DNA of 47,207 nucleotides, from contig CANJVS010000001.1 of assembly GCA_947477755.1 (NCBI GenBank), positions 1 to 47,207 on the forward strand. Reading direction: 5' to 3'. The notes below the pieces were generated by a model that did no database searches, had not been told where the DNA came from, and was given only the letters and a program-made list of their open reading frames with translations. Positions within the stretch are counted from its first letter, which is position 1. Every line of letters starts with the position of its first letter. The DNA comes from Verrucomicrobiaceae bacterium (GTDB taxonomy: Bacteria > Verrucomicrobiota > Verrucomicrobiia > Verrucomicrobiales > Verrucomicrobiaceae). The translations under genes and the position numbers were made by a program. Of the stretch, positions 19,161 to 41,431 are shown one piece after another.

Positions 19161-19574
19161 ATGAAAACTAACATCCCCACAAACCGCTCCCGCCGCTCAG
19201 GCTTCACCCTGATTGAAATTAGTTTGGTCATTGCCCTTCTCTTGGGCCTGATCGCAGTGGCCTTTATCGGCATTGGCAGCTACCGCAAAGGTTCTGACAA
19301 GGCAAAATGCAAGATGCAGCTTGCAGCCGTTCAGAAGGCCGTTCGCGGTCATGCAAACATGACGAATCTGCCTAACGCCGCCCCGCTTCCCTCAGCAGCT
19401 GTTTTTGGTGCTGGATTACTGATGGAAACCGAACCAGCTTGCCCAACCGCACCCACTGGAGGCTACACTTGGGCAGCAGTTGTGCCTGCTGTTGGAACTC
19501 CATATGGAGTTTGCAGTGACACCACCACTGGTTTCACGCACGTGCTGACCGTTGCAGAAACGGAAGGTTGGTAA
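19161..19574 (+). CDS. Type IV prepilin, probable major pilin
   Basis: Class III signal RRSG|FTLIE plus a hydrophobic helix; 123-aa mature protein; first gene of the operon. Confidence 0.88.
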   Translation: MKTNIPTNRSRRSGFTLIEISLVIALLLGLIAVAFIGIGSYRKGSDKAKCKMQLAAVQKAVRGHANMTNLPNAAPLPSAAVFGAGLLMETEPACPTAPTGGYTWAAVVPAVGTPYGVCSDTTTGFTHVLTVAETEGW

Positions 19575-19620
19575 TTTTAAACTATCACATGGATAGATTT
19601 GACTGCTATAAAGTGAAATT

Positions 19621-21489
19621 GTGATCCCCATAGTTGACCCGACCACTCTGACGAAGGCAGATGCTTATAAACAAGCTAAGCTGATCTTCGCCACGAGTGG
19701 TCGGGCATCTCTCGACCCAAATTGGTTCGAGCTTCCTGAAAATCTTCAACATCAGTGGCATATTTGGTTTGATGGAGGCCATGAAGTGCACTCCGCAACC
19801 TATTCTCAGCGAGAAAACATTTGGCGCGAAGGCCCCAAGTTGACGCTTCCAGCCCTGACTACGGGTGAAAACGTCGATCAAGTTTTCCACTCCCTGTTGG
19901 ACTCTGATTATTTCGACGAAAGGCCGAAGGCCATCGGAGTAGTTTATCATGTAGCCGATGAGTTCGCTCAAGCCGAACTAGCGGAATTCACTACAGGACT
20001 GAGTGTCGCTGAAGACATTCAGATGATGCGGTACAATCTGACCGACGAACCGGTTGAGTTTCTGGCTGACAAAAAGATTTCTGAGGAACTGACCACTTGG
20101 AGGTTGCTCTACATGCATGGAGCAATGGCGGGACAGGTTCGTTTTGTTGCTGTCAGTCTGTCACGGTACCGTGAGGCATTTTCAAAAAAACTACTCATTG
20201 CTGGTGAATCTCATCGCATTCCCGTCAGAATAGCGATCACGGCGGCTCCACTTGAGGCTTTGGCTGCAATGCCATTGATCGGATTACCTCAGGATGAGGG
20301 GTATTTACTGGTCATACCATACCTGAAATTCACGGTGGTCTTCGCAATGAACTCATCTGGGGAGCTGGTTAGCATGCGTAGTCTGCCCCACAAAGTTGAA
20401 ATTCCGGTGCCTTCAGGCTTTGGCGATATCCTCTGGAATATGGCGATTCGAGCAGAGATCATGGGTGCCAATGAACCCCTTGTGGTTCTGGCGGCCAAGA
20501 GTTCACTCGAGCTGCAAGACATAACGCGCGAACTCTACACGTATTCAGCCAGACACCACCCACTTCGCCTGCATGGAATAGATTTGTCGGCTCACCCAGC
20601 GATGAAGGCAGTGACCCATCATCATTTGGAATTTTTAATTTATAGCACCAGCGAAATACAGCGCGCCCGCGAAGAAACTCCCGCCTTGGCCAACACAAAG
20701 ACATTTTCCAATCTCTGGGATTGGATGGCTAAGCAAAGTTTTTTCAATATTGGCAAGTTAGATGACCAATACCCCACTCTGGCTGATTTGCGCCTCATGC
20801 ATCTCTCGGTGTGGGTGAACCGATTGTTAGTATGTTCGCTATTTCTGGCTTTTGGCTATGGCGGTTATTCGATCTTCACCGCGATGAATCACCCTTCATG
20901 GGGGCTAACGCCTGATGAAATCAAAATTTCAGAGGAACGGAATGCTCAGCTTTTGCGTGAAAGTCAGGAGATCGCACGGACGAATTTACTGATGCAACCA
21001 CGCTCAAGAGGTTGGGTTAACTTGGAGTTTTTATTCCAGCTCTTTCCTGAAGATTCAGGGGTAAGACTGGACGAATTCAATTATTCGATGGCGTCGGATG
21101 CGCCAACCAAGACAGCGATTAAGGGTGCTGTCGCAGCAAACGGGACCATCGGAGCCGTAATCGGCATGTCTCGAACCTGGAAGATTAAAGGCATGATCAA
21201 GTCCAAAGGTTTGGAATTACTGAGTAACCTAAATAGCCAGCGTGGATTGCGGGTGTTTTTTGAAAAGGTCGAAAAAGCGACAGGGGATTCCAGTTATCAA
21301 CCGGATCCTTCCCGCTTACTCTCAATCACCCTGACGCAGGCGCGAAACTCTCGCTACAATGCCCAAACAACGGCTTCGGAAATCCTGCGTGATCCGGCCG
21401 TCACTTATCCGTTTACTTTCGAGGCAGTCATCACTCAAAACTTTCCGGACAAGGACCCTCTGGCTCTGCCCACCGAGAAACCGTTCTAG
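19621..21489 (+). CDS. GspL-like (PilM+PilN-type) alignment protein, putative
   Basis: GTG start; about 400-aa soluble N-terminal part, one TM helix (WVNRLLVCSLFLAFGYGGYSIF), coiled coil, then a PilN-like LFPEDSGVRLDEF...WKIKG segment. Position in the operon supports this. Confidence 0.55.
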   Translation: MIPIVDPTTLTKADAYKQAKLIFATSGRASLDPNWFELPENLQHQWHIWFDGGHEVHSATYSQRENIWREGPKLTLPALTTGENVDQVFHSLLDSDYFDERPKAIGVVYHVADEFAQAELAEFTTGLSVAEDIQMMRYNLTDEPVEFLADKKISEELTTWRLLYMHGAMAGQVRFVAVSLSRYREAFSKKLLIAGESHRIPVRIAITAAPLEALAAMPLIGLPQDEGYLLVIPYLKFTVVFAMNSSGELVSMRSLPHKVEIPVPSGFGDILWNMAIRAEIMGANEPLVVLAAKSSLELQDITRELYTYSARHHPLRLHGIDLSAHPAMKAVTHHHLEFLIYSTSEIQRAREETPALANTKTFSNLWDWMAKQSFFNIGKLDDQYPTLADLRLMHLSVWVNRLLVCSLFLAFGYGGYSIFTAMNHPSWGLTPDEIKISEERNAQLLRESQEIARTNLLMQPRSRGWVNLEFLFQLFPEDSGVRLDEFNYSMASDAPTKTAIKGAVAANGTIGAVIGMSRTWKIKGMIKSKGLELLSNLNSQRGLRVFFEKVEKATGDSSYQPDPSRLLSITLTQARNSRYNAQTTASEILRDPAVTYPFTFEAVITQNFPDKDPLALPTEKPF

Positions 21490-21492
21490 CGT

Positions 21493-22056
21493 ATGAGCCT
21501 TTACACCCAGCCGATCATTCAACGCGGGCTTGTCAAGCCGGGCGTCGTGAATCTAGCGATCCTGATGCTGGCTCTGTATGGAATTAGCGAAATCGTCACC
21601 ATTCGCGCCAAGAAAACCGAGTTGTATGAAAAACAACTGCTGAGAAATCAGGCAAACAAAAAACTTGAAGAAGCCAATCTGCCTAAGAGACCGACATTTG
21701 AAGATCAAAAGAAAATACTTCGGGCTGACCCAGGATTGACGTACACGAAAGTTCTGGACCGTCCGTTAACAAAATATAAAGAGATTGAACTGGACCGTAG
21801 TAGCCTTGTTTTTCCGATTGATCGCGGCAGCATTGGTCGAAATGTGAAATGCGATTTGGTTCGCGTGAAAAGCGTCTATACAGGTGGTTTAGGCCCTATG
21901 CAGGAAATATTGTTGCAGGTGGAGTCCCTTATGCCGCAATCGGTGTTGGAAGAAATGAAGATCTCGCGTAAACCCAGCTTGCTGATGAATCATCAGGAAA
22001 CGCTCATGCTGGAGACCACACACACTTGCTGGAAGGCAGAGGAAGCAGTGCGATGA
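21493..22056 (+). CDS. PilO/GspM-like bitopic membrane protein, putative
   Basis: N-terminal TM, coiled coil, and a C-terminal YTGGLGPMQEILLQVESLMPQSVLEEMKI segment typical of PilO/GspM folds; synteny agrees. Confidence 0.5.
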   Translation: MSLYTQPIIQRGLVKPGVVNLAILMLALYGISEIVTIRAKKTELYEKQLLRNQANKKLEEANLPKRPTFEDQKKILRADPGLTYTKVLDRPLTKYKEIELDRSSLVFPIDRGSIGRNVKCDLVRVKSVYTGGLGPMQEILLQVESLMPQSVLEEMKISRKPSLLMNHQETLMLETTHTCWKAEEAVR

Positions 22057-22673
22057 AATTGATCATTATAACAGCCTTCGCTGTGCTGATCACTATGATG
22101 GGCACTTTGAACGCACAATCCGCTTCAAAAGCAGCCAAGGTTGTCACTCCCCAGCGAAAAAACCTTTTTGTCGGCAATGATACTCCAGGACTGCTGCCGA
22201 CCAATAAAATCACACCAACCGCAAGTGAGTTGGAAATTAGTGCCCAAAAGCTAAGTGGACGATTACGCAACCAGGACCCGTTCGATCTGGCTACTTTCCC
22301 GAGCGAGGACGCGATTCAACCGATTTTGGATGACGAACTGCCACGAGAAACGGTTCGCATTACTCTAAATCAGGCGTTGCAGACCTTGAAGATTAATGGA
22401 GTTAATCTGGTCGGGAAGGAGTTTCTCATTGGCGGCCGAAACGCTTTCGAGGGGGATGTGATTGAGTTATCCTTCAAGGGCGAACTATTTCAGGCCCAGG
22501 TAATGGAGGTCGGAGCCACGCAAATTGTCTTCCGTGATTTACAAAAAAATGAGACAGGTATACTCTCGCATAAAAGTGTGCCTAATCTTTCGATCGAACC
22601 GATGAAAAGCAAGGCTTCACCGTTGATAGATAGAATGACCCCAATGGAAACCAACACCTCCAGTAAAAAGTAA
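22053..22673 (+). CDS. PilP/GspC-like exported protein, putative
   Basis: ATGA overlap with the upstream gene; signal peptide; RNQDPF motif and LKINGV...EGDVI...VMEVGATQIVF beta domain; directly upstream of the secretin. Confidence 0.5.
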   Translation: MKLIIITAFAVLITMMGTLNAQSASKAAKVVTPQRKNLFVGNDTPGLLPTNKITPTASELEISAQKLSGRLRNQDPFDLATFPSEDAIQPILDDELPRETVRITLNQALQTLKINGVNLVGKEFLIGGRNAFEGDVIELSFKGELFQAQVMEVGATQIVFRDLQKNETGILSHKSVPNLSIEPMKSKASPLIDRMTPMETNTSSKK

Positions 22674-24541
22674 TGAACAGAACAGCCGTCCAATTTTTCA
22701 CTCTGATGACGGCCTGTGCCATGCCTGTTGCCGCACAACAAGTTGGCTTGGAATCAACACCGCCATCAGCAATAAAGCAAATTGTCGAAAGCGCATTGAA
22801 TGAACCAGCACCCACAAAGACAGGGATGACTGGTTTGCCAGTCCTGGCTGAGGATGGTTACTGGATTGAGAAGGCACCCATCAATGAGGTGTTCCAATAT
22901 CTAGCTCGATGCGCCTCTCTCCAGTATTTTCACAACAATGAACTCGACTTGCCTGAGTATGTGGTGACAGGGCATCTTAAGCTCGACAATCCCAGGCAAC
23001 AAATGGAGGAGCTGGCTGTCGTTTATGGGCTTAATGTCTATCAACAAGATACAACCATATCACTTGTAACCGAGCAGCAACAATCTCGGTTGCCGGTCGA
23101 GGTTATGAGTTATCAGTTGAAATACTTGCGGGGAGCCTCACTCAATAGATCAATTAGCGCGTCATCCTCAGGAGCAAGTGGAGCGAAGCCCTCAGGGGGG
23201 GGCGGAGGTAGTGCCAGTGGTGGTGGTGGCAGCGCCTCAGGCGCGGGCTTAGCCGACTTCGAAAAACTTAAATCGATCATTAAACCGATGCTGACTCGTG
23301 AAGTCGGAATGATCGAGTTTGAGGAGAAAACTAACACGCTTCTCGTGACAGATAATAAAGTAAAGCTCGAGCGCGTCAGTAAACTGCTGCTTGAAATCGA
23401 CAAGCCCAAACCGCAGATCATGATCAATGTTAGGGTTCTTAGGGTTAAAAGGGGGCAGGGGCGTTTAACTGGGGTGGATTGGACCGGCGCGTTGGGCGCT
23501 TCTGGAATCAGCGTCAGTGCTACACAGAGTTTGAATGCACTCTTTAATCTACCAAACTCTAGCAGTCTCTCCGTTAGCGGATCGCCTAATTCTCTGACCT
23601 CCGCAATCAAGAAGGAATATACGCCTGGAAGTGGTTTGATTTTCGATTCCGCCAAAGCACAGGTGATACTCCGCGCCTTAGAGTCGTCGAATCTGGTCAG
23701 TCAGGAAGCCTGCCCAACTATCATCACAGAAGATAATGAACAGGGTATCATCTCGATTGTGGATCGCTTCCCCATCCTGATAGCAACCGTGACCACCTCG
23801 GCCGGAGTACAAAATATTAGCGAACAGGTGCGGTATAAAATTGATGAGTCTGATGCAGATTCTACCCAGGCACCGGAAAAAAGCCGAGAGATTGGAGTCA
23901 CTTTATCGGTTACACCGACGCTTCTGCCGGACGGTACGGTGCGTATGAAATTAAGACCTCGAGTGGCGAAAATAATAGAATTTGTTGCCGGGAAAAACAG
24001 CACCGGAAGCGTTGGAAATTCTTATCCACGCGTTAGCGAATCCACCGTGGAGGCAATTAGCCGCATTCCAAGCGGTCAGTCCCTCTTCTTGGGAGGATTT
24101 TATGATTACAACAATACGGGTGATCGCAATAAAGTGCCCATTTTAGGTGATCTGCCATTTATCAAAAAGTTGTTTGGCAACAATTCAAAGCAGATGGAAC
24201 AGCTCAGTCTAGTGTTCGTCATCACGCCCAGCGTCTATGATGCCGGAGATATCGGAGACATCCAATCGATCAATGCGGACGTCGGGGAGTATTCACAAAT
24301 GCCTCGCGATGATGGTGCCGCCAACCCACAATTACTCCCAGAAGCAGATTGGTTAAAAGCTGAGAGAGCCACACCATTCCAGCAAGCACCGGCGGACGCA
24401 ACAGTGACAAACACGAAAAGTTCGGAACCCGGCTGGATTGGGCGTCTATTTTCGCGCAAGCCAAAAATGACCAATGTTCCGGTGGCGGAGTCTCCCAAAA
24501 CCTATCCTGCCTTTTCGCAGGGAACCCGCAGTAAACGCTAG
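22673..24541 (+). CDS. Secretin (PilQ/GspD family outer-membrane channel)
   Basis: Signal peptide; N3-type TNTLLVTD...EIDKPKPQIMINVRV; EIGVTLSVTP; LFLGG; KVPILGDLPFIKKLF; LVFVITP. Confidence 0.92.
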   Translation: MNRTAVQFFTLMTACAMPVAAQQVGLESTPPSAIKQIVESALNEPAPTKTGMTGLPVLAEDGYWIEKAPINEVFQYLARCASLQYFHNNELDLPEYVVTGHLKLDNPRQQMEELAVVYGLNVYQQDTTISLVTEQQQSRLPVEVMSYQLKYLRGASLNRSISASSSGASGAKPSGGGGGSASGGGGSASGAGLADFEKLKSIIKPMLTREVGMIEFEEKTNTLLVTDNKVKLERVSKLLLEIDKPKPQIMINVRVLRVKRGQGRLTGVDWTGALGASGISVSATQSLNALFNLPNSSSLSVSGSPNSLTSAIKKEYTPGSGLIFDSAKAQVILRALESSNLVSQEACPTIITEDNEQGIISIVDRFPILIATVTTSAGVQNISEQVRYKIDESDADSTQAPEKSREIGVTLSVTPTLLPDGTVRMKLRPRVAKIIEFVAGKNSTGSVGNSYPRVSESTVEAISRIPSGQSLFLGGFYDYNNTGDRNKVPILGDLPFIKKLFGNNSKQMEQLSLVFVITPSVYDAGDIGDIQSINADVGEYSQMPRDDGAANPQLLPEADWLKAERATPFQQAPADATVTNTKSSEPGWIGRLFSRKPKMTNVPVAESPKTYPAFSQGTRSKR

Positions 24542-24554
24542 TCATAACATTTCA

Positions 24555-25151
24555 ATGCCTTCGGAAACCATTACAGGCATTCTTTTCCCTCAAAAAGTTG
24601 TTACTTCTGACCATGAAGCTATTGTCGATGTCTTGAAAAGAATCGCCATCTGCTGTTCCGAGTATCTAGTGGAGGGTGGCTATCTGTTAAAAAATGAAAC
24701 CGAGGGCTATCAAAGTGAGTATTTGAGTTATCTAAAAAAAGGTTCAGTGCCGGTGGATTTCATCGCCTTTCTGGCAGAGGCAAAAGTGAAGGATCACTCT
24801 CTGTCATTGGAATCGGAAGTATCAAAAATTCAACAAATACTCAATGAGCGATTAAGCGGATCCGTCTATTGCTGGGATTTTGGTCCAATGCCGGGGAAGC
24901 AATCATTGTTATACGAAACTCATCCTGAGGTGATGAGAATATGCGAGCGCTTAAGATGTACAGCGACGGATGCAGGCGATCCAGGAATCCTTCATATTGC
25001 TTCGATCAATCCGATTTCTGCCTTGGTTGCCAGCGCTTGGATTGCCCACGAAGTGACACAAAACTCGGTGCATGAGCAGCCTTTTGTATTCACCTTCATG
25101 GTTAGTTTTCCAGTTTGGACCATGCTTTTGCATCAACATTTTCTTGCATAA
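24555..25151 (+). CDS. Hypothetical protein, possibly a stand-alone PilB/GspE N-terminal-like domain
   Basis: ATG 14 bp after the secretin stop; TAATG overlap with the ATPase; LHIASINP segment resembles the LxVAxxDP motif of the T2SSE N-domain. Confidence 0.5.
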   Translation: MPSETITGILFPQKVVTSDHEAIVDVLKRIAICCSEYLVEGGYLLKNETEGYQSEYLSYLKKGSVPVDFIAFLAEAKVKDHSLSLESEVSKIQQILNERLSGSVYCWDFGPMPGKQSLLYETHPEVMRICERLRCTATDAGDPGILHIASINPISALVASAWIAHEVTQNSVHEQPFVFTFMVSFPVWTMLLHQHFLA

Positions 25152-26842
25152 TGAACCTGAATCTGGGCATCACCTTCAATGAGACGATCGAAAAGCAGGT
25201 GATCGCAAATCTACGTGCATTTTCATCTGAGGGGAAAACCCTTTCTGATGACAAACTCGTTAAAATTTCCTCTAAAGCTCGTATCCTCGGTGCAGTCGGG
25301 CATACAGCGGGACTGCCAGTTTTTCCGAATGTTCGTGAATTGGCAAATCCAGAGTTTGTTAGCCAATGTGATGCCACGGTTCTTTCGCGAGGAATGTTCG
25401 TTCCGTTGCGCCGTGGTAATAATCGAATCCTTTTAGCTGTAGCGGATCCATGGGACTACCGGGCAGACGATTATTGCTCTTTGAGTTATCCCAACGATGT
25501 CCAACTCAAGGTGGTGACAATGGCCTCGGAAATTTCCGCCATCATTGAGGGGGTTTCAAATTCATCCGGGCCAAGCCAGGCTACACTCGAGGCAGTTCAA
25601 GTGGATGAGTTTGCGGAAGATAATCTCGATTTCGATGTAACCTGCACCTATGAGGAGACAATCGCGCAACTTGTGGCGGGAATGGTTGCGGATGCCATCA
25701 AGCAGCGAGCATCGGACATCCACATAAAGACTGAGAAGAATAACTTTCAATACTGTTACAGAATTGATGGTGACCTGAGGCAGCGTGTGGAAATGCCGCT
25801 AAAACTAAAGGATCGTGTCGATGCCTTTTTGTTAAACATGATGAGTTTGTCTCCCGAGGAGCGCAGCAAGAGGCCTGGGATTTCTGGTCGTTTCACGGCT
25901 CTTTATTATGGGCGCTCCGTTGGTGTGCGTTACGAGAGGCATCGCACTTACCGGGGATATCACATCACCATGCGGTTGCTCGACAAAACGCATTTGGAGG
26001 CGCGCTTGGGAATGGGCACGCTAAAATTTGACAAGGAAACTCTGTTCCAATTGGAAGCGGCGATGGCTATCCCCTCCGGAATCATCGTGATGTCAGGTCC
26101 TACAGGAAGCGGTAAATCTACGACACTTAACGCGATGCTACGGGAATTGAATCATCCGGAAGACAACATTCTGACGCTTGAAAACCCGGTTGAAGATGAA
26201 ATCCCCGGGGTCACTCATTGTGACTTGCGTGACTCCAGCGAGTTCAAGCCGATGATCAGCAGTTTCATGCGCTCAGACCCCAATGTCATTCTGATTGGAG
26301 AGGTCAGGGACCGGGAATCGGCAGAATTGGCCATTGAAGCTGCGATCACTGGACACAAGGTCCTAACCACCATTCATACACCACGAGCCTCGTTAGTGAT
26401 CGAGAGATTTCAACAACTTGGAACCGAGCGCTGGAAAATTGCCCAAACATTGAAAGCGGCATGCGCGCAGCGTCTGGTGAAAGTGCTCTGTCATTCCTGT
26501 CGGGAAAGAACGGATGGTGTTTCCGAACATGACACCAGGCTTTTCCATCTTGATCCATCTTGGATCACCCGGCCGGTTTATGTTCACCGCGATGGTGGAT
26601 GCCATGAGTGCAAGGGTACCGGTTATATTGGCCGTTCGGCAATTTTGGAGATTCTACCCATCAGCCCGAAGGTCGGAGACGAGTTGGCAAAGGGAGATAT
26701 CACGCCGTATGAACTGGAGCAACGCGTGCGCCGTGACAACAATGTGCCATCCATGCGTGAAAGCGGCCTGAAATTGTTGGCTGAGGGCAAAACAGATTTG
26801 GAAGCTTTGCGCAAGCAGTTGGACATGACCTATGAATCGTAA
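25151..26842 (+). CDS. pilB: PilB/GspE family assembly ATPase
   Basis: ASDIHI; Walker A GPTGSGKSTT; Walker B ILIGEVRD; His box GHKVLTTIH; tetracysteine CHSC...CHEC-GTGYIGR. Start taken from the TAATG overlap. Confidence 0.92.
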   Translation: MNLNLGITFNETIEKQVIANLRAFSSEGKTLSDDKLVKISSKARILGAVGHTAGLPVFPNVRELANPEFVSQCDATVLSRGMFVPLRRGNNRILLAVADPWDYRADDYCSLSYPNDVQLKVVTMASEISAIIEGVSNSSGPSQATLEAVQVDEFAEDNLDFDVTCTYEETIAQLVAGMVADAIKQRASDIHIKTEKNNFQYCYRIDGDLRQRVEMPLKLKDRVDAFLLNMMSLSPEERSKRPGISGRFTALYYGRSVGVRYERHRTYRGYHITMRLLDKTHLEARLGMGTLKFDKETLFQLEAAMAIPSGIIVMSGPTGSGKSTTLNAMLRELNHPEDNILTLENPVEDEIPGVTHCDLRDSSEFKPMISSFMRSDPNVILIGEVRDRESAELAIEAAITGHKVLTTIHTPRASLVIERFQQLGTERWKIAQTLKAACAQRLVKVLCHSCRERTDGVSEHDTRLFHLDPSWITRPVYVHRDGGCHECKGTGYIGRSAILEILPISPKVGDELAKGDITPYELEQRVRRDNNVPSMRESGLKLLAEGKTDLEALRKQLDMTYES

Positions 26843-26845
26843 ATC

Positions 26846-28467: not shown

Positions 28468-28484
28468 AACCACTAAAGCCCTAA
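28449..28484 (+). repeat. Perfect 17-bp tandem duplication across a stop codon
   Basis: AAAACCACTAAAGCCCT x2 plus AA. Confidence 0.9.
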
Positions 28485-28497
28485 TTGCTGATTTATT

Positions 28498-29615: not shown

Positions 29616-30391
29616 ATTCCTTGCGCCGATGGCCTTTGTGCCGCTCCTGCATAGCAGAAATGAGTTCACGCGGTAGTTGCTGGCTTGTTTTGTGCGGTGT
29701 TATGCTTTTTGCCTGGCTAATGCCGATGCTTACTCCCTGGGAGGAGAATCCCCAAATTCTTCAGCCGGCGCGAGCGCAGGCATCTTGGGTTTACCTTTGG
29801 TTGATGATGTTTTCTTGGTTGCCGTTTCAGGCCGCCATCTTTGGGCATCGTGTGTGCAGGGATGGTCTGCTCGATCACCTAAGCGCTGCGGGCTCAAAAA
29901 AATTTAGCCTGTGCCTGCAAATCACTGCTGCCGTGGTGATTTGGCTGTTGGTTCTTGTGCTCCTTGGAGTGCTGATCTGTGGCACGGTTTGCCTGCCAAA
30001 ACGACATGAAGAAGCTGTGCTTTGGTGGCAGCTACTGGCGCAGTATGGGTTACTCTATTCCTTGTGTGGCATTCCACTTCTGTGGCTAGCCGTGGCTTTG
30101 GGAACACGAGTATCGGAGATCATTGCGTTTTTAATGCCTGTTGGGTTGCTTTTTATCGGATTATTTGGAGCGGTTTGGTTCGTGCCGCTGCTGGAAGGTT
30201 CGGATAATGGTCTTACTCGGACCTTCTGGATGATGCTCCCTCACTATCATCTGGCCGACTTGACCCCGCGACTGGTTTTCAAATTGGGACCACTCTCCAC
30301 GGCAGATTTTACCACGTCCGTCCTTATTCTGAGTTCGCAGGGGGCTGCGCTAATTTTGTTCGGCTTATGTCTATTTCGAACACGCCCTTAA
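29612..30391 (+). CDS. ABC-2-type permease-like membrane protein
   Basis: About six hydrophobic helices; ATGA overlap with the ABC ATPase. Confidence 0.7.
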   Translation: MNSLRRWPLCRSCIAEMSSRGSCWLVLCGVMLFAWLMPMLTPWEENPQILQPARAQASWVYLWLMMFSWLPFQAAIFGHRVCRDGLLDHLSAAGSKKFSLCLQITAAVVIWLLVLVLLGVLICGTVCLPKRHEEAVLWWQLLAQYGLLYSLCGIPLLWLAVALGTRVSEIIAFLMPVGLLFIGLFGAVWFVPLLEGSDNGLTRTFWMMLPHYHLADLTPRLVFKLGPLSTADFTTSVLILSSQGAALILFGLCLFRTRP

Positions 30392-31248
30392 CACTGCTTT
30401 GCTCCGGATTTTTGTGGTGTCTCGCGGGTTTCGTGGAGAAAGACTGCAGATCGCAAGAGGTCTCATTTTTTGCCGTGCCGGGGAGTGCCTATGGCAGTCT
30501 GGCTGCGCGGCAGATGAAATACTCCCTCTATAGCTACTGGCACCAAGGCGAAAGCGCTTATGCCCCTCCAGCTGCTGCTGTTGATGGGGGGGGCGAGAAG
30601 CTTCCTCCTCCCGGCCGGTTTAAGCGGAGTGGCCCGGAGAAGCCTAATCGGGACTTAATAAAAACCAGTGTTCAAAAGGCAATCTGGTATGAGCGATTAC
30701 TGCAAACTCTTCTGGTTTTGGAATCGCACCGGACTCGCAGCAACACGCAGTTTAAAACTTCGCCGGCGCACCAGCGATATCTGGAGGCCTCCGCTATCTG
30801 GCGTTTGCAACTTGCTTGTGCGCTCGATCCTGGAGATCCAGCCCTCTATGAGATCCTAAACATGGCCTTATCCACTAAGCTGGCGCATTCAGAATCCGTG
30901 CGTTTGCAACTTGTCACTTTGGTGGATCGAGCCATCAAGAAATCCAGTTCGCCTCAGGCAGGGATGTTGGATCAATTGACAGCGATCGGGGCGGCTATTG
31001 ACCGCTTGAATGAGCTTCTGTCTCCTGATTTAAAAACAAAGGATGAGACTGCCATCAGGTATTACTGGGATGTTGTTCAAACGGGTCAGGTGCGCTACGA
31101 GACGATTAGAAAACAGGCCGGCGACGAAGGGTGGTGGGGTGGCATTTCAATGGTCCGACAGCAGGAAATAGAGAGTCACGCAGGATTCCTAAAGCGCATT
31201 GCCAACGGACTTGGCAAAGTGGTGGATTCAGGAAAGTCCAAAAAGTAG
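30367..31248 (+). CDS. Hypothetical exported or membrane-anchored helical (possibly TPR-like) protein
   Basis: Hydrophobic N-terminus; TPR-like ACALDPGD turn; last gene of the plus-strand operon. Confidence 0.55.
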   Translation: MSISNTPLTLLCSGFLWCLAGFVEKDCRSQEVSFFAVPGSAYGSLAARQMKYSLYSYWHQGESAYAPPAAAVDGGGEKLPPPGRFKRSGPEKPNRDLIKTSVQKAIWYERLLQTLLVLESHRTRSNTQFKTSPAHQRYLEASAIWRLQLACALDPGDPALYEILNMALSTKLAHSESVRLQLVTLVDRAIKKSSSPQAGMLDQLTAIGAAIDRLNELLSPDLKTKDETAIRYYWDVVQTGQVRYETIRKQAGDEGWWGGISMVRQQEIESHAGFLKRIANGLGKVVDSGKSKK

Positions 31249-31267
31249 GGGGCTGCCATTTAACTGG

Positions 31268-32428
31268 TTAGCTGATCAAATTGGAATTGAAAACATCCTC
31301 ACTAATTTGACCTTCCCGATACAGCTTCATCAAGGATTGATCCCAGCGCTGATTGCCTTTGTACTTCAAGGCATCGGCTAAACAAGTGGCGGTACCATCA
31401 TAAACCCTGATGCCTGCGGACACGGCATCGCTGGTGTTTTGAAGATACTCCGTGACCAGAACACGGCCCTTAAAGCCTGTGAGCAAGCCTTGGGACAAGA
31501 CAAATGTCATGGTTTCCCCCAAGCGTTGAAGAATTCCTGCATGCTGGTCCTGCGGGAAAAATTCCAGAATACGGCCAATTGTTTTTACGGCTCCGCGCGT
31601 ATGCAGGGTGGAGAGGACGAAGTGGCCCGTTTGGGCTGCCTCGATGCAGGTTTCCATTGTCTGCCTGTCTCGTATTTCTCCAATAAGGATGATGTGTGGT
31701 GCCTTGCGCAAAACCTCCTTGAGGCCGCTTTGGTAGGAATTGGTGTCTCGTCCAACTTCCTGCTGAGTGATGAGCGAGGGACTGTATATTCGGGAGCCAG
31801 GATGATTGGGATCATCCATCATTGAGTCGTAGCGGTATTCGATCGGGTCTTCGATGGTGACGATGTGTTTTTGAAAATTACGTCGAACCCAATCAAGCAG
31901 AGCCGCCAGTGTGGTGGATTTTCCGGAACCGGTAGGACCGGTGATCAGGCCAAGGCCAAAGCGTCTCTGAATGAGTTCGCGCAGGCTGTCTGACACCAAT
32001 GGATCAATGCCCAGTGTTTCCAACTGACTGATTTGGGAGCGGAGCCAGCGAGAGGTAATGCCCAAGCCATTCGAACTGAGATGGATCTGAACACGCATTC
32101 TCACAGGAGATCCCAGAACGCCCTGCTCACAACTGATGTCTAGAACACGTTGTTCCTTGAGCAGGCTCCACATTCTTTCAGCCGTGTAGGCGGTGTCCGC
32201 TGCGGACCATAACTCGGTGCTCTGGTTGCAAAACAGGGCCGCTGCTGTGTGGGCAACTTGTTCTGCGGTCTGAATGCCAAGGGACTCGGCTATTACCACG
32301 CCCTGATTGGTGTGGACGTAGATCAGACCTCCCGTGCGTATCTGCACATCAGAGATTTCACGGTCAGGGTAGAGGGCCGCAAGCTGTCCGAGGATATTGA
32401 AAGAGGCAGAATCGTGATCAGGCATCAT
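31268..32428 (-). CDS. pilT: PilT/PilU family retraction ATPase (divergent)
   Basis: Walker A GPTGSGKSTT; TIEDPIEY; QQEVGRDT; LRKAPHIILIGEIRD; GHFVLSTLHT; 386 aa with no tetracysteine motif. Confidence 0.88.
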   Translation of the reverse strand: MMPDHDSASFNILGQLAALYPDREISDVQIRTGGLIYVHTNQGVVIAESLGIQTAEQVAHTAAALFCNQSTELWSAADTAYTAERMWSLLKEQRVLDISCEQGVLGSPVRMRVQIHLSSNGLGITSRWLRSQISQLETLGIDPLVSDSLRELIQRRFGLGLITGPTGSGKSTTLAALLDWVRRNFQKHIVTIEDPIEYRYDSMMDDPNHPGSRIYSPSLITQQEVGRDTNSYQSGLKEVLRKAPHIILIGEIRDRQTMETCIEAAQTGHFVLSTLHTRGAVKTIGRILEFFPQDQHAGILQRLGETMTFVLSQGLLTGFKGRVLVTEYLQNTSDAVSAGIRVYDGTATCLADALKYKGNQRWDQSLMKLYREGQISEDVFNSNLIS

Positions 32429-32449
32429 GTAACTATGGTCAGATTGGCG

Positions 32450-34417
32450 CTAGTCCTGCAAGATTTCCTCAATGACAATCAACCAACTCATTTGATAAAC
32501 CGGCGGTAGTTCGGCCGGACTGCGGACGGGGGAGAGCTGAGCGCTAATCAGGTCGGTATGCACGGATTCGTCAGTTCCGGATTTTAAATCCAGAGGTTTC
32601 CAGTTGGTTGTCCCGCTAGTTGCGCTAGTTGCGCTAGTTGCGCTAGTCCCGAGATTTCCAAGCTGACCAATCACTTCAAGTGGTCTGACGAATGAAGTGG
32701 TCCCGATTCGAGCCTCGGCGGCAAAGATCGACATGGGAGGGTAGAACTCTGCTCCAGTGGGTAGGCCAGAGTCTGCAGGTGCTGCCATCGGTGTAGTGTT
32801 AATATCATCGCCCAGATAAACGCGCAATGGACTTACGATGGACATGCCGGAAGAGAAAGTGGTCAAATCTTTGCCTGAACGAACAATGACACACATGTCT
32901 TCGGTGGCGGGTGGGGAGCTTAAAACACGGACTGTTGAGTTTGCGCCGGTGGTGCCGGGAATAAAGTAAATGCTGTTGTTGACGCTTGTGGAAGCTCCAC
33001 CATTGAGTTCCAGCCAGCCATTAAACAATGCCGAATGAAAAGTAATGCTTGCACGATTGCTGCTAGTCAATTCAGTTTGAAAAGGCATCAGATTCCCTCC
33101 CGTTTCAAAAATAGTGGGCCAATTGTTACCTCTGGTCAGAGAAATTTCGATAGTGCTGCCTGTTGGCGAAAGGAAACGCACACGTATGCGGGTTGGGGTC
33201 TGGTTTGCGTAGCTGACCATTGAAAGAGCCTCCACCGTCACCGCGCATTTTTGTGCGCCGATTGCATAGTTTTGCCATTCGGTGGGTGTGGGTGTGCTTG
33301 GTGGGCGCTGCAGAAACTGGGTGCCGGCCTGAATTGGTAAAAAGGCGAGTCTTCCGGAGTTTGCAGAGAGTGCCACAGGCAGGCTGTCAGACCTGGTGTC
33401 AGCCTGTAGCTGTTCGCGGACCCCCAGGGAATCAAAGGTATTGCTGATATTCAAGCCTCCCATGGTGACACTATCTGTGATGTTGATGCTGTTGCCCCCC
33501 GCAAGACGACTGGCGCCAAAGGTGCCCTCCACAGCCAACTGTTTTGCGTAGATGGTGCCATCAATACTGATCTGGTTGCTCATCCATGCCGTGCCGTCAT
33601 TGAACCTCCCAATGGTGGCGAGGGTTGAGGTTTCGATGGCCATTTGTGAAGGGATCTCATAAAGTGAAAGGATGTAGTTTTTTGCGGTGCTCCGGGTTGA
33701 ATTACCGTAATTGACGGTGAATGCCCACCAGTTACGTTTTGCCACAAAAGGCTGCCCCGGAGTCGTGTAGCCAAAGCGTATGTTCGGGTAGGGAATCAGG
33801 TTGTAGACCGGGTAAGCAGAGATACTTGCCAGCAGGCTTGGATCTTGAGTGGCGTACTGCTTTTGTGTTGAAATAATGGGGCGGATCGCATCTGCATCCT
33901 GCAGTGTTTGGCTCATTTTAAGTGTCGGGGGAACGCGTCCGGTGAAGGTTGATCTCGAGAAAATGGATGAATAAGAGGTGGACCCTGGAGTCACCTGGTT
34001 GGCCACTCCGCTGAGTGAGGTGATCCAGCTGCCAATCTGAGTGTCAGTGCTTCCTCCAACATCAGCGCTACGGGAAGTTCCCAATTTCAGGCTCTCAATG
34101 AGTGCAGGGCTTAACCGTTCAGACACCGTGGATAGAGTGATTGAATCCGAAAAAATCCGTTTCCATGAATACTCTTCAGAGGCCGCGTAATTCGCTTTCA
34201 TGCAGGCGATGGCTTTGGCCGGGAAAATAGCCACGATGGCCCGCATCAGGACATCTTCACGCTGCTGGTAATCCAAATTCAGCTGGAAGCTTGCGGCTTT
34301 ATCCTGATTCAGCAGCATCTGACTGAATAACAAAATCAGGCTCAGCGTAATCAATAGCGCAATAACGGTTACCGCCGGTAATGCGGCGAACCCCGACTGG
34401 TTGCTCCGCTTCTTCAT
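32450..34417 (-). CDS. Large PilX/GspK-like minor pilin with an extended beta-rich domain
   Basis: Leader MKKRSNQSG|FAALP (no Glu5, as in PilX/GspK) plus a hydrophobic helix; 655 aa; coupled to the upstream pilin. Confidence 0.65.
   Translation of the reverse strand: MKKRSNQSGFAALPAVTVIALLITLSLILLFSQMLLNQDKAASFQLNLDYQQREDVLMRAIVAIFPAKAIACMKANYAASEEYSWKRIFSDSITLSTVSERLSPALIESLKLGTSRSADVGGSTDTQIGSWITSLSGVANQVTPGSTSYSSIFSRSTFTGRVPPTLKMSQTLQDADAIRPIISTQKQYATQDPSLLASISAYPVYNLIPYPNIRFGYTTPGQPFVAKRNWWAFTVNYGNSTRSTAKNYILSLYEIPSQMAIETSTLATIGRFNDGTAWMSNQISIDGTIYAKQLAVEGTFGASRLAGGNSINITDSVTMGGLNISNTFDSLGVREQLQADTRSDSLPVALSANSGRLAFLPIQAGTQFLQRPPSTPTPTEWQNYAIGAQKCAVTVEALSMVSYANQTPTRIRVRFLSPTGSTIEISLTRGNNWPTIFETGGNLMPFQTELTSSNRASITFHSALFNGWLELNGGASTSVNNSIYFIPGTTGANSTVRVLSSPPATEDMCVIVRSGKDLTTFSSGMSIVSPLRVYLGDDINTTPMAAPADSGLPTGAEFYPPMSIFAAEARIGTTSFVRPLEVIGQLGNLGTSATSATSATSGTTNWKPLDLKSGTDESVHTDLISAQLSPVRSPAELPPVYQMSWLIVIEEILQD
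32614..32647. repeat. Perfect 9-bp in-frame tandem repeat (encodes TSA TSA TSA TS)
   Basis: CGCTAGTTG x3 plus CGCTAGT. Confidence 0.9.
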
Positions 34418-34950
34418 CGTGATCCTCCGCTGTAGGTGATTTCTTCGCCATACGGCCCATATAGGGTGGCGTTAAGAATTCCCTGATTCGCACTAAACGA
34501 TGCGTCTGCCAGCTTGTCGCTGATAACCCATGAAGTCTCCGAGCCGTCGGGTTGAATTGTGTAGAATTTCAACCGCGTGATCCCTCCACTGGTTTGGACC
34601 CCGATGAGACGCTCCTTGGTAGTCTGGGCGGCAGCGCGGAAGAAAAGGCGCACGGCTTTGCCATTGCTCATGATTGGCTGGCTGCCAGCCCGGGCCGAAT
34701 CATGGTTTGCGTAGACAAAGTAATGATCGGCCTGATTGATGATGCGCCCCAGCAGGGCACCAATACTGGGTGCTTCATTGGTTAGAAAAGTCTGGCGCTT
34801 TGCCATTTCCATAAACGTCAAGTGCTGCTGCAGCATGACCACAAGAATGCTGGACAGCATGAGCATCAAAGAGATCGCGACAGAAAGCTCCACCAGCGTA
34901 AAGCCTGCCGCAGTTCGCAAGGTGTTTGATCGAGGGCACCGCTGTCTCAT
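34414..34950 (-). CDS. PilW/GspJ-like minor prepilin
   Basis: AAG|FTLVELSVA class III signal; 4-bp overlaps with both neighbours. Confidence 0.8.
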   Translation of the reverse strand: MRQRCPRSNTLRTAAGFTLVELSVAISLMLMLSSILVVMLQQHLTFMEMAKRQTFLTNEAPSIGALLGRIINQADHYFVYANHDSARAGSQPIMSNGKAVRLFFRAAAQTTKERLIGVQTSGGITRLKFYTIQPDGSETSWVISDKLADASFSANQGILNATLYGPYGEEITYSGGSR

Positions 34951-35420
34951 TGCATACGGAGGGTTGATCTACTTTTCACGTAGTGCTGGTTACCAATTTC
35001 GTATTTCAGGACAGAGTACAGCCTGATGACGCTGAGGTTGGTTGCAGTGGAGACCTCGCTGGCGATATCGAGACGAAATCGTGTTAATGTTGCCTGGATC
35101 AGGCTGCCTCCGGCTGCTTTGCCCAGAGTCACGGTTTGATCGGCGCTTGCATCTATGCTTGGCCAGAGTGATTCCGCAGCAGTCAGATCAACCCACGGGA
35201 TGCGATTTGAAAGTGCTGTTTCTCTTGTCAGATAGGCGTCAGTCAGGGTTTGCATCACTGTCCATTGATTGCCTGAGATAGCCAGCAGGGAGGCTTTCAT
35301 CATGACAAGCGCCAGCATTACGGTGAGGCCCAAGGCGAGGGAGACTTCAATCAAGAGACTTCCGGGACAGGATCTGCGTCGCAGATGAGTCGCGTTCTGG
35401 CGCATTAGCTTCATAACCAA
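34947..35420 (-). CDS. PilV/GspI-like minor prepilin
   Basis: RRRSCPG|SLLIEVSLALGL, a class III-like signal with Glu5. Confidence 0.65.
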   Translation of the reverse strand: MVMKLMRQNATHLRRRSCPGSLLIEVSLALGLTVMLALVMMKASLLAISGNQWTVMQTLTDAYLTRETALSNRIPWVDLTAAESLWPSIDASADQTVTLGKAAGGSLIQATLTRFRLDIASEVSTATNLSVIRLYSVLKYEIGNQHYVKSRSTLRMQ

Positions 35421-35442
35421 AGCTTACGCTTATGGATCGGTG

Positions 35443-36516
35443 TCAGGGTTTTTCACTTGAGCTGATTCTTCCTCGCGTGGTAATGGTTCGATCCACACTG
35501 AAAGTTATATTGATCAGCCTTTCGGGAGCACGATTAAAAAAAGGAGTTTCTGTAATGACCTCAAGGGTGTAGGTGCCGTCACGATTAGCATAATTAGATA
35601 GGTCCGGAATTGAGAGCGTTCGGCATTGTGGAACGTTTGTGGGTTCGCCTTCAAGATCCGGATTATAGTGGCGTCCAAAGCAATGTTTTGTGCCTTCGAC
35701 GACAGTCCCAACTTTTCCTAAAGCCTCTGTCCCTTTATAGATCTGAACGTGCGTGCATGAGTCTGGGTAGAGATCTTTAAGTTTAACGATGACTGCTGGC
35801 AGGCGATCAATGTAAAGTTTATTATGCTCAATATTTTCAATGGTTGCTGTAGCCACAGGCCAAATTTCCACTTTAGGCTCTGTCAAAATAGTTGCCGGCA
35901 CCCCGTCCGATTCATAGCGGATAAATTTATAGGATTGTTCGCCGCATGCATGACTAGGAGATGCGGAATCAAGTTCGTGATAGACACCGCTTACACTTTT
36001 GTTGCAATTGCCCAGAGTACTTTCATGAAGCAAGCGAGTGGGCTGATTCAGGCTTGAATAGGTTGTGGAATCGTACTTCACGCCAGAACATGCGTAATAG
36101 ACACATTTTTCGGCCAGCTCTTCACCGTCATCTACCAAACCACTGACTCCAATTCGAATGTCGATAGGGCGATCAGCGCGTGTTCGGTACACACAGGAAT
36201 TTCCAGTGCCACGAACATACGAATCCTCACTTGTGATACTGCACCCTGCAGCGGGGGAATAGGTATACAAAAGTTTTGAATCTAAGAGATAAATGTTTGT
36301 ATCCCATGCAGTGCCGCTTGCGAAAAGTTGGAATAGTGATCCTTGGTCACCAATCGGTAACATAGAGTTGAAGGCGTTTTTATTTAGAGTGCCATTTATT
36401 GGAATGTCATAAACTAAAGCAGAACCAAGCACGGTCTGTCTTACCCAAGCCTGAGATTGCGCTGGAAGTTGTTGGCAAATCCAGAGTGCTAAGAATACAA
36501 TTATCGGCTTTTTCAT
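35443..36516 (-). CDS. Hypothetical secreted Cys-containing beta-rich protein
   Basis: Sec signal MKKPIIVFLALWICQQLPA; multiple Cys; co-oriented with the minor pilins. Confidence 0.65.
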   Translation of the reverse strand: MKKPIIVFLALWICQQLPAQSQAWVRQTVLGSALVYDIPINGTLNKNAFNSMLPIGDQGSLFQLFASGTAWDTNIYLLDSKLLYTYSPAAGCSITSEDSYVRGTGNSCVYRTRADRPIDIRIGVSGLVDDGEELAEKCVYYACSGVKYDSTTYSSLNQPTRLLHESTLGNCNKSVSGVYHELDSASPSHACGEQSYKFIRYESDGVPATILTEPKVEIWPVATATIENIEHNKLYIDRLPAVIVKLKDLYPDSCTHVQIYKGTEALGKVGTVVEGTKHCFGRHYNPDLEGEPTNVPQCRTLSIPDLSNYANRDGTYTLEVITETPFFNRAPERLINITFSVDRTITTRGRISSSEKP

Positions 36517-36528
36517 AAGTGAATGATT

Positions 36529-37191
36529 TTATTTGCGGTCGCTTTGAGTTGTGTTTGAAGCCTCTAGAATACAGATGGGGTTACTTCGATAAACAGCCAC
36601 TCGAAGTTTTAAATCACTATCTAATTTCTGCATGATATCAGCAGTGGCATCCTTGTCTCCCAGGGCCATTTCCATCGGCACTTCCTGAGTTGACAGCCAC
36701 TTGGCATTCTGCTTGAGAAATACTGGCCAAAGCAGGAAACTTCCACGAGGGGCACTTACGACATGTTCACGCAAGTTTGCAGGAAGGCGTAGGATGCAAC
36801 CCTGTGGGATGAGTGTGAAATTTGTGCCGTCAAACAGAATGATGGATTTGCTGAAGGCTGAGTCGTCAAGGCTAGGGCGGGCGTCACCGATGGGTTTCCT
36901 GTTTGCAGAGACTAGATCCTTCATCTTTGGAGAGGCGCTTATCAATTCTCGCAATTTTGAATCTGATATGACATCGCGTTCAGCAGGCTTTGGGATACCA
37001 ATGATTTGCTGTTTGACATCGTTTTCCCTGTTTTCGACTGGGGCGAAAATCCCAGGCACACTTTCAGTTGGTGATTTCGTCGGACAGAAATTGTCGGCTC
37101 CTCTTAGTGGCACAAGTTGAGAATACAACACCACAGCGATAACTAAATCGCCTGATTGGCCTAATTTTTGAATGCAGGTATTCAAAATCAT
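36529..37191 (-). CDS. Hypothetical protein (probably exported)
   Basis: 220-aa ORF with a hydrophobic N-terminal stretch; 12-14 bp gaps to both neighbours. Confidence 0.6.
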   Translation of the reverse strand: MILNTCIQKLGQSGDLVIAVVLYSQLVPLRGADNFCPTKSPTESVPGIFAPVENRENDVKQQIIGIPKPAERDVISDSKLRELISASPKMKDLVSANRKPIGDARPSLDDSAFSKSIILFDGTNFTLIPQGCILRLPANLREHVVSAPRGSFLLWPVFLKQNAKWLSTQEVPMEMALGDKDATADIMQKLDSDLKLRVAVYRSNPICILEASNTTQSDRK

Positions 37192-37205
37192 ATTACGGCG
37201 TGCGA

Positions 37206-37781
37206 TTACTCTCGCGTTATAGTTGCGGTGCCTGAAGGCTTGGCGTTGGGATTGTTCAGAACGAATTTTCCGGTGCTGAATATTAGACTGCCAACTGGCT
37301 TGGGCGGATCCTTCTGATACTCACCGAGGATATTAAACGTACCGGAAGCCTTTTTGTCACTTCCTTCTAAAGAATTCCATTTGAGCGAAAATGTAATTGG
37401 AGTATTAGAGGCCTTGAAGATAACCGCTGGAGCAATTGGTAATGAAATCAGTGGGGATGCATTGAAGGTTGCAATATCTTTGAAGATTAGATTAGCTGTC
37501 CGACTATTACCAACGCTGCTTGAAACAGTGGCCACCAATGTGTATTTATTTTTGTCACCTTTAATATAATTAATGACATTTCCTTTGGCCTCCAGTCCCG
37601 TCATCACGAATTTGTAGGAACTCAAGAGACTATACGTTAGCGAGAAGGATGCCCCTGAAGCATACATTTGGCCCACAGGCACACCGGGCCCGCCTAACAT
37701 TACGTCTCCTAGAGCGGCTCTGGTAATGGTCAAGACCAGCAGTGCGTGAATAAGCAATTTTACGTTCGGAGTTTTCATCAT
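37206..37781 (-). CDS. Hypothetical secreted protein
   Basis: Signal peptide ending in RAALG-D; Ser/Thr/Gly-rich beta-like body; first gene of the minus-strand operon. Confidence 0.6.
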   Translation of the reverse strand: MMKTPNVKLLIHALLVLTITRAALGDVMLGGPGVPVGQMYASGASFSLTYSLLSSYKFVMTGLEAKGNVINYIKGDKNKYTLVATVSSSVGNSRTANLIFKDIATFNASPLISLPIAPAVIFKASNTPITFSLKWNSLEGSDKKASGTFNILGEYQKDPPKPVGSLIFSTGKFVLNNPNAKPSGTATITRE

Positions 37782-41428: not shown

Positions 41429-41431
41429 GAG

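What the first reader, a model, noticed from the sequence alone, without database searches (positions are those of the whole stretch)
19161..37781. Self-contained, atypical type IV filament system: T2SS-like scaffold plus retraction ATPase, ABC transporter and unknown exported subunits
Seen: 20 genes in two convergent operons with many ATGA/TAATG overlaps. They encode five prepilin-type proteins, a secretin, PilB, PilC, PilT, three alignment-like proteins, an ABC trio and several hypotheticals. Known: T2SS uses GspL/M/C and lacks PilT, whereas T4aP uses separate PilM and PilN plus PilT. Inference: this mixed architecture, with divergent motor motifs, fits no canonical model well and may be an uncharacterised Verrucomicrobia-specific retractile filament class (adhesion, surface motility, or substrate or prey capture). 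It is the best candidate for a new system in this window. Function cannot be read from the sequence.
Basis: partly seen in the sequence, partly recalled or inferred. Interest (0 to 1): 0.85.

Follow-up and report, generated by a model that had tools for sequence, protein, structure and literature searches.

The report
Verrucomicrobial retractile pilus with solenoid cap
These 20 genes encode a type IV pilus machine whose marker genes are inherited together in about four in ten sampled Verrucomicrobiales genomes; it likely extends and retracts a filament capped by a protein predicted to resemble the Thermus tip pilin ComZ, likely for attachment, and it is an undescribed variant of a known kind of machine.

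Summary
Observation confirmed: 20 intact genes in two convergent operons, in a Prosthecobacter-type genome. The 'T2SS scaffold plus PilT' reading mostly dissolves. The GspL-like gene folds as a full-size PilM domain fused to a membrane/periplasmic part. PilM-PilN fusion beside PilT also occurs in a Firmicute pilus locus, and pilus-linked ABC trios are known from Myxococcus. The largest hypothetical is a PilX-type pilin whose best solved match is the beta-solenoid tip pilin ComZ. What is distinctive: its extension and retraction ATPases each form their own well-supported, long-stemmed clade and score far below PilB, GspE and PilT family cut-offs. They are co-inherited: all 116 of 301 order genomes with the PilB also have the PilT, and 112 have the cap pilin. 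Placement within T4aP or T2SS is unresolved (AU p 0.051 and 0.113). Best reading: a retractile T4a-like pilus with a FimU/PilV/PilW/PilX-type tip, likely adhesive; DNA uptake is the main rival. Four genes (o6, o9, o13, o19) have no family. Six literature searches found no description. The scan found this system twice before on other DNA. New variant of a known kind.

The parts
19161..19574 (+). o1, likely major pilin (137 aa, G|FTLIE)
   Evidence: TIGR02532 match; best PDB matches are Geobacter pilins, E 1.5e-4; first gene of the operon; 2-3 tandem copies in two distant loci
19621..21489 (+). o2, PilM-like actin-fold domain fused to a membrane helix and a periplasmic domain (PilM-PilN fusion, the PilN half inferred)
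   Evidence: AlphaFold model pLDDT 85.7; Foldseek PilM E 1e-8, cyto-EpsL 3e-7; VIA Z 11.6 PilM, 9.8 GspL
21493..22056 (+). o3, PilO/GspM-family inner-membrane protein
   Evidence: PF10741 T2SSM_b in 8 of 24 orthologues, best E 6.6e-6
22053..22673 (+). o4, likely PilP/MshK-type secretin-linking protein
   Evidence: Signal-peptide-like start and conserved R..DPFG motif; position; no Pfam or PDB match; likeness to PilP is recalled
22673..24541 (+). o5, secretin with a single N3-type repeat
   Evidence: PF00263 and one PF03958; below GspD, PilQ and MshL cut-offs at 129, 124 and 109 bits
24555..25151 (+). o6, conserved 198-aa protein of no known family, directly before PilB; possible motor accessory
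   Evidence: Conserved in 32 aligned rows; no PDB or Atlas hit; hhalign to PilB N-domains only 3.8% probability
25151..26842 (+). o7, PilB/GspE-type extension ATPase of its own clade; Walker A/B, His box and Zn motif intact, Asp box reads TLENPVEDE
26846..28063 (+). o8, PilC/GspF platform protein
   Evidence: two PF00482 stretches
28060..28467 (+). o9, small protein with a hydrophobic N-terminus, no family; another small conserved gene holds this slot in distant families
28498..28905 (+). o10, minor pilin (G|FSLIE)
   Evidence: weak pilin-family matches; conserved after PilC
28887..29615 (+). o11, ABC ATPase (PilH-like; likely start 28902)
   Evidence: PF00005
29612..30391 (+). o12, ABC-2-type permease (PilI-like)
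   Evidence: weak PF12698, E 4e-4
30367..31248 (+). o13, membrane-anchored partner of the ABC pair (PilG slot by position only)
   Evidence: conserved after the permease; no Pfam family in 17 orthologues
31268..32428 (-). o14, PilT-like ATPase of its own clade; catalytic motifs intact, AIRNLIRE replaced by AVSSGIRAY-like
   Evidence: TIGR01420 251 bits, cut-off 319; best PDB matches all PilT
32450..34417 (-). o15, PilX/GspK-type cap pilin with an inserted beta-solenoid, ComZ-like
   Evidence: model pLDDT 85.4, pTM 0.84; the only Foldseek hits at E<=0.001 are three ComZ chains; VIA Z 8.7, 267 aligned, rmsd 4.5
34414..34950 (-). o16, minor pilin (PilW slot)
   Evidence: TIGR02532; directly before o15 in the cassettes seen
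34947..35420 (-). o17, minor pilin (PilV slot, G|SLLIE)
   Evidence: sequence; cassette order o17-o16-o15
35443..36516 (-). o18, exported protein, possibly Ig-like, with a conserved C-terminal tail
   Evidence: Atlas lead only (score 0.87; TM under 0.5 by query); tail conserved in 13 cassettes printed
36529..37191 (-). o19, exported protein of no family, part of the tip cassette
37206..37781 (-). o20, exported basic beta-rich protein (pI 9.6), variable, replaced by another family in some cassettes

Best explanation
The locus encodes a type IV pilus machine with its own lineages of PilB-like and PilT-like motors, which likely extends and retracts a filament whose predicted ComZ-like solenoid cap likely attaches the cell to surfaces or particles. 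Shown by sequence, profile or fold: pilin, secretin, PilC, both ATPases with intact catalytic motifs, a PilM-fold domain fused to a membrane helix, a PilO/GspM-family protein, an ABC pair, and a solenoid-bearing PilX-type pilin. Inferred steps: (1) o15-o16-o17 with o10 prime the filament as a PilX/W/V/FimU-type tip; (2) o7 on o8 adds o1 subunits; (3) o2-o3-o4 link the motor to the secretin o5; (4) o14 retracts the filament; (5) o11-o13 help deliver pilin, as proposed for Myxococcus PilGHI; (6) a prepilin peptidase encoded elsewhere processes the pilins; (7) o18-o20 are exported tip or assembly accessories. I put the retractile-pilus part at about 0.8 and the adhesive role at about 0.6 given that.
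For: A dedicated PilT-like gene is kept in all 116 of 301 order genomes that have this PilB (119 have it); T2SS loses PilT (PMC6668835, passages). Closest solved relatives are the T4aP PilB of the 3jc8 machine model (292 bits; GspE 258; BfpD 136) and PilT (209; DotB 131). o2 matches PilM over 266 of 336 residues. PilM+PilN in one 561-aa protein lies next to PilT, PilC and PilB on an Alkaliphilus plasmid. The cap pilin co-occurs with PilB in 112 of 116 genomes. For adhesion: the solenoid also matches ice-binding DUF3494 domains (Z 5.9-6.6). o15 is acidic (pI 5.4). Some genomes carry 2-3 tip cassettes for one machine. ComEC and DprA are kept whether or not the locus is there (87 of 87 and 86 of 87), and other pilus ATPases are present.
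Against: No functional or expression data. o14 lacks the AIRNLIRE helix, which a review calls critical for retraction (PMC4471445, passage); 0 of 12 orthologues have it. It sits on a long branch near TraJ, though grouping with PilT is not rejected (p 0.324). The best structural match of the cap is a DNA receptor (PMC6561018), and its TM-scores are low (0.16-0.23). The PilM over GspL margin is only 1.8 Z units, and the top hit is an actin-like protein of unknown function. The PilN half of o2, and the PilP and PilG calls, rest on topology and position. No PilY1 was recognised in the locus.
Confidence: 0.5

Rival explanations
1. Same retractile pilus, but dedicated to DNA uptake: the solenoid cap binds DNA as ComZ does and retraction delivers it to ComEA/ComEC.
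For: ComZ is the only significant fold match of o15, and ComZ binds DNA and is needed for uptake (PMC6561018, abstract and Discussion). ComEC, DprA and a ComEA-like repeat are present in this genome. ComZ itself shows no positive patch, so o15's acidity does not exclude this. o16 and o20 are basic. Cyanobacterial competence pili use solenoid PilX caps with redundant paralogues (PMC13759059, passages).
Against: Solenoid PilX caps serve both competence and motility/adhesion pili in cyanobacteria. ComEC and DprA do not track the locus (against 29 of 86 family genomes with it). No com gene was recognised among recurrent neighbours (neighbours were clustered and read by eye, 9 were scanned against Pfam).
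Confidence: 0.27
2. A T2SS-like secretion machine with a short periplasmic pseudopilus that exports o18-o20 or other cargo; o14 resets the piston.
For: Fused cytoplasmic-membrane-periplasmic o2 has the GspL layout; o3 matches the GspM_b family; o1 orthologues match GspG weakly (14 of 25); o7 scores equally on GspE and PilB (291 and 294 bits); grouping with GspE is not rejected (p 0.113).
Against: PilT kept in 116 of 116. One N3-type repeat in the secretin. The cytoplasmic domain of o2 is PilM-sized (about 345 aa, against 224-238 for the GspL chains). A large solenoid cap. The genome has other GspE/PilB-like systems.
Confidence: 0.12
3. A static or slowly retracting fimbria in which o14 is an assembly co-motor and not a retraction motor.
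For: AIRNLIRE absent; o14 below the PilT cut-off and on a long branch beside TraJ.
Against: All best solved matches are PilT or PilU; no Zn motif or N-terminal extension of PilB type; grouping with PilT not rejected.
Confidence: 0.1

Closest known systems
Type IVa pilus of Myxococcus xanthus / Geobacter (PilA,B,C,M,N,O,P,Q,T with pilGHI)
   Same: Best solved PilB matches; dedicated PilT; PilM fold; ABC trio in the pilus cluster (PMC3724824 and PMC6060248, passages); M-N-O-P-Q gene order.
   Different: PilM and the PilN slot are fused; ATPases score far below family cut-offs and form separate clades; Asp-box D to N; no AIRNLIRE; no PilY1, PilD or PilRS recognised in the locus; extra genes o6, o9, o18-o20. 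Homology of o13 to PilG was not tested.
ComZ-PilA2 tip of Thermus thermophilus (PDB 6QVI; PMC6561018) and cyanobacterial solenoid PilX (PMC13759059)
   Same: Pilin helix without E5, beta-solenoid inserted in the pilin domain, encoded with two small minor pilins.
   Different: 8-10% identity, low TM-score, 655 aa; flanked by three exported proteins of no family; ligand unknown.
MSH pilus (Vibrio type)
   Same: Order of alignment genes, secretin, ATPase, platform, pilins (recalled); no prepilin peptidase in the locus (PMC6668835, passage); MSHA uses PilT (PMC9815625, search listing only).
   Different: No MshM AAA ATPase between secretin and ATPase; o7 does not group with the one MshE reference; secretin 109 bits against a 250 cut-off; PilT is in the locus.
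Type II secretion system
   Same: GspL-like fused layout of o2; o3 in the GspM_b family; GspK-class cap.
   Different: Own PilT; single N3-type repeat; o7 outside the proteobacterial GspE clade in the best tree.
Akkermansia Amuc_1098 pilus system (PMC4960237, passages)
   Same: Same order of bacteria; secretin-based type IV pilus.
   Different: A different system: o5 scores 51 bits on NF042912 (cut-off 750); the o7 clade was found in 0 of 37 genomes of genus g2, which I take to be Akkermansia by inference from size and placement.

Membership tests
Type IV filament superfamily | prepilin(s), traffic ATPase, platform protein, secretin in diderms | tested here: met
Type IV filament superfamily | prepilin peptidase available | tested here: met
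   Not in the locus nor found in this 53%-complete genome; present elsewhere in 5 of 5 complete relatives
T4aP | dedicated PilT-type retraction ATPase | tested here: inconclusive
   Best PDB matches PilT and kept in 116 of 116; but below the TIGR01420 cut-off, no AIRNLIRE, own clade; AU p 0.324 for grouping with PilT
T4aP | extension ATPase nests among PilB | tested here: inconclusive
   Own clade 100/97, outside the cut-off-passing PilB clade 91/99; backbone unresolved; AU p 0.051
T4aP | PilM, PilN, PilO, PilP alignment module | tested here: inconclusive
   PilM fold met; PilO/GspM family met weakly; PilN half and PilP by topology and motif only
T4aP | core minor pilin set ending in a PilX/K-type cap | tested here: met
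   o17-o16-o15 cassette plus o10
T4aP | long retractile surface filament | not testable with these tools
   needs microscopy
T2SS | no PilT | tested here: not met
   a PilT-like gene is co-inherited in 116 of 116
T2SS | GspD-type secretin with several N domains (recalled) | tested here: not met
   one PF03958 stretch; 129 bits against a 351 cut-off
T2SS | ATPase nests among GspE | tested here: inconclusive
   outside the proteobacterial GspE clade in the best tree; AU p 0.113
MSH pilus | MshM (mandatory in the published model, PMC6668835) | tested here: not met
   no further AAA protein among the 20 genes
Competence (DNA uptake) pilus | ComEC, DprA, ComEA available and linked | tested here: inconclusive
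   present but near-universal in the family, not tracking the locus
Competence (DNA uptake) pilus | tip pilin binds DNA | not testable with these tools
   needs a binding assay
T4bP | long leader peptide and BfpD/PilQ-type ATPase | tested here: not met
   o1 leader is 14 aa with F+1; BfpD scores 136 bits against 292 for PilB; no T4bP ATPase was in my trees

The most novel reading that the evidence does not exclude
This is a separate, deep branch of the type IV filament family, neither T4aP, T2SS nor MSH, with co-evolved PilB and PilT lineages. It is the dedicated DNA-uptake pilus of free-living Verrucomicrobiales, using a ComZ-like cap and new accessory proteins (o6, o18-o20), and would open natural transformation in an order with few genetic tools.
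Probability: 0.17. Interest if true: 0.78.

Novelty: new variant of a known kind. Interest (0 to 1): 0.5.

Why it matters
Free-living Verrucomicrobiales are common in lakes, soils and seas, and their surface filaments have no assigned genes in the papers I could search. This gives a complete, co-inherited gene set in cultured strains, present in some species of a genus and missing in others, so function is directly testable. It adds a divergent motor pair (Asp-box D to N in PilB, no AIRNLIRE in PilT) for testing which motifs retraction needs, and extends ComZ-type solenoid caps to another phylum. If the pilus takes up DNA it would offer a route to genetics in this group. The parts list itself is largely standard, which limits surprise.

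Tried and rejected
o18 binding o15 through its C-terminal tail (idea from PMC13711793, abstract): complex prediction gave no verdict, score 0.01; not used either way. o6 as a split PilB N-domain: hhalign 0.15% and 3.8% (highest of 12 locus alignments but not significant); left open. ~1000-aa hits to o7 as PilB-PilT fusions of this family: rejected, they are tandem PilB-PilB proteins, one cluster named Paceibacterota, outside the clade. ComEC/DprA co-occurrence: uninformative. 19-bp repeat upstream of o1 as a conserved operator: found only in this genome among 195 loci. RNA evidence: no RNA holder listed. Sequence searches of PDB with o2, o3, o4, o6 profiles: nothing significant. Viral fold library for o15: nothing. 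First metagenome scan found nothing; the second returned one locus of this system (L102) and 78 others at 29-37% identity that I did not analyse further. A mixture-model tree timed out; trees are LG+G4 on 274-276 core columns, the final one with 57 rows, its bootstrap not fully settled, and four intended rows were not recovered by the script. No trees were built for PilC or the secretin. MacSyFinder was not available.
Full report
OBSERVATION. The window is contig C1 of a 53%-complete genome. Its PilB relatives at 62-96% identity are mostly named Prosthecobacter, Brevifollis, Verrucomicrobium or unclassified Verrucomicrobia (32 loci). Twenty ORFs, here o1-o20, fill 19161-37781 in two convergent operons. 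Eight of 18 co-directional junctions are ATGA or TAATG overlaps. Pfam and NCBIfam confirm secretin, two traffic ATPases, PilC, an ABC ATPase and a weak permease match. The block is 49% GC against 58% outside. In most relatives with flanking DNA the locus is within about 0.05 of its flanks, so the gap here may reflect transfer from a lower-GC relative (inference). No tRNA or long flanking repeat marks its ends.

CONSERVATION. All 20 genes are in the same order in 5 of 6 same-genus genomes fetched in full. In other families the ABC trio and o14 usually sit upstream of o1 in one operon, and the tip cassette o19-o18-o17-o16-o15 lies nearby or elsewhere, sometimes in 2-3 copies. ABC genes are adjacent in 17 of 19 long loci examined (two short loci left out). 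In one draw of 301 genomes of the order, 116 have the o7 clade, 119 the o14 clade and 119 an o15 homologue. All 116 have o14 and 112 have o15; 7 have o15 without o7. Kin are not independent, so these are descriptive counts. Presence is patchy within genus g1 (24 of 64) and nil in genus g2 (0 of 37). In phylum draws the only matches were inside the order (2 of 301, 7 of 401). One record named Spartobacteria carries it (L034). About 20 more divergent clade members come from metagenomes; of 17 looked up, one carried an organism name, Verrucomicrobium sp..

THE SCAFFOLD. The o2 model (pLDDT 85.7) has an actin-like domain of about 345 residues, a membrane helix near 387-422, a coiled segment and a C-terminal alpha/beta domain. 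Foldseek ranks an unknown Bacteroides actin-like protein first, then PilM chains (E 1e-8), FtsA and cyto-EpsL (E 3e-7). VIA-align gives PilM Z 11.6 over 266 residues and GspL Z 9.8 over 217. The C-terminal domain was not tested separately. PilM plus PilN is the known counterpart of GspL (PMC4471445, passages), and a natural PilM-PilN fusion lies beside PilT on an Alkaliphilus plasmid. So fusion plus PilT is not a contradiction. o3 belongs weakly to the GspM/PilO group. o4 has no family match but a PilP-like layout (likeness recalled). The secretin has one N3-type repeat and passes no subtype cut-off.

THE MOTORS. o7 scores 294 bits on PilB (cut-off 676) and 291 on GspE (cut-off 630), while two other extension ATPases of the genome reach 599 and 543. 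Its Asp box reads TLENPVEDE in 14 of 14 orthologues; 97 of the 113 next-ranked representatives have D there and 8 have N. Its closest solved relative is T4aP PilB. In a 57-row tree the clade has support 100/97 and stands apart from the PilB clade (91/99) and proteobacterial GspE (100/98) in an unresolved base; an 89-row quick tree agrees. Forcing it with PilB (p 0.051) or GspE (p 0.113) is not rejected. o14 is closest to PilT structures, keeps Walker A/B, Asp and His boxes, lacks AIRNLIRE in 12 of 12 rows, and forms a 100/100 clade near TraJ; grouping with PilT is not rejected (p 0.324). The genome also has a canonical PilT (378 bits).

THE TIP. The o15 model (pLDDT 85.4, pTM 0.84) matches only ComZ at E<=0.001 and at Z 8.7, followed by ice-binding solenoids at Z 5.9-6.6. 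TM-scores are low, so this is shared architecture, not close kinship. ComZ is a tip DNA receptor (PMC6561018, abstract and most of the Discussion). Cyanobacterial PilX proteins carry the same solenoid in both competence and motility pili and are proposed to replace PilY1 (PMC13759059, passages). o17-o16-o15 therefore read as a PilV-PilW-PilX-type priming set. o18 may be Ig-like (lead only) and has a conserved tail. o19 and o20 have no family.

THE ABC TRIO. Myxococcus pilH encodes an ABC homologue needed for pilus biogenesis, and PilGHI are said to be needed for pilin translocation (PMC3724824, passages; PMC6060248, passages). Geobacter XapD is a similar transporter tied to biofilm function (PMC9070056, passages). 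o11-o13 fit this kind by layout; orthology was not tested and o13 has no Pfam family.

MECHANISM AND RIVALS. Most likely a retractile T4a-like pilus. Adhesion is favoured over DNA uptake on weak grounds: solenoids resemble adhesive domains, tip cassettes are multiplied, and ComEC and DprA are kept regardless of the locus while other pilus motors are at hand. DNA uptake remains plausible; T2SS-like secretion and a non-retracting fimbria are less so.

NOVELTY. Searches pairing Verrucomicrobia, Prosthecobacter, Verrucomicrobiales, Verrucomicrobium spinosum, Luteolibacter or Verrucomicrobiota with pilus terms listed no paper on this locus. The library lacks most subscription papers. The main text of the TFF survey (PMC6668835) has no occurrence of 'Verrucomicrobia' or 'PVC'; its supplementary tables, which I did not open, may class these systems as T4aP or generic. 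Homologues of o2, o15 and o18 that carry names are labelled hypothetical. The Akkermansia pilus is a different system. Two earlier notes of this scan describe the same machine in other genomes. Verdict: a new variant of a known kind; interest 0.5.

Noticed in passing
proteins P0203, P0206, P0207, P0209, P0210, P0215-P0219, P0221-P0223, P0225: About 1000-aa proteins with two complete PilB-type ATPase domains in tandem; one cluster is named Candidatus Paceibacterota. A covalent PilB dimer may be worth its own look.
   Followed up: partly
   Followed up: partly
window 18969-19043: AT-rich tandem repeat of period 19 (3-4 copies) upstream of o1; not found in other loci.
   Followed up: yes
L032: A decaying copy: o2 and o5 are split into several ORFs and ABC genes are not detected after o10.
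   Followed up: no
L074 2240-4323: The permease o12 is interrupted by about 1.3 kb, possibly an insertion element.
   Followed up: no
G459:C18 and G521:C87 (L191-L193): Two genus-g1 genomes carry a more divergent copy in which all genes face one way, suggesting a separate acquisition.
   Followed up: no
G408: One complete relative has 14 PF00437 matches, with several PilT-like pairs: many type IV filament systems in one genome.
   Followed up: no
window 32614-32647: A 9-bp repeat gives SAT-SAT-SAT in a low-confidence loop of o15.
   Followed up: no
window 7749-12029: A 1426-aa histidine kinase with about eight PAS domains and a GAF domain; unrelated to the locus as far as seen.
   Followed up: no
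window 14316-16688 and 39122-45551: DUF1549/DUF1553, DUF1501, WD40-cytochrome and PPC proteins typical of planctomycete-like clusters flank the locus.
   Followed up: no
L183, L185, L187, L188, L190: Exported proteins at the head of tip cassettes share an NNGHGNN..GVDSSNPG motif even when otherwise different.
   Followed up: no
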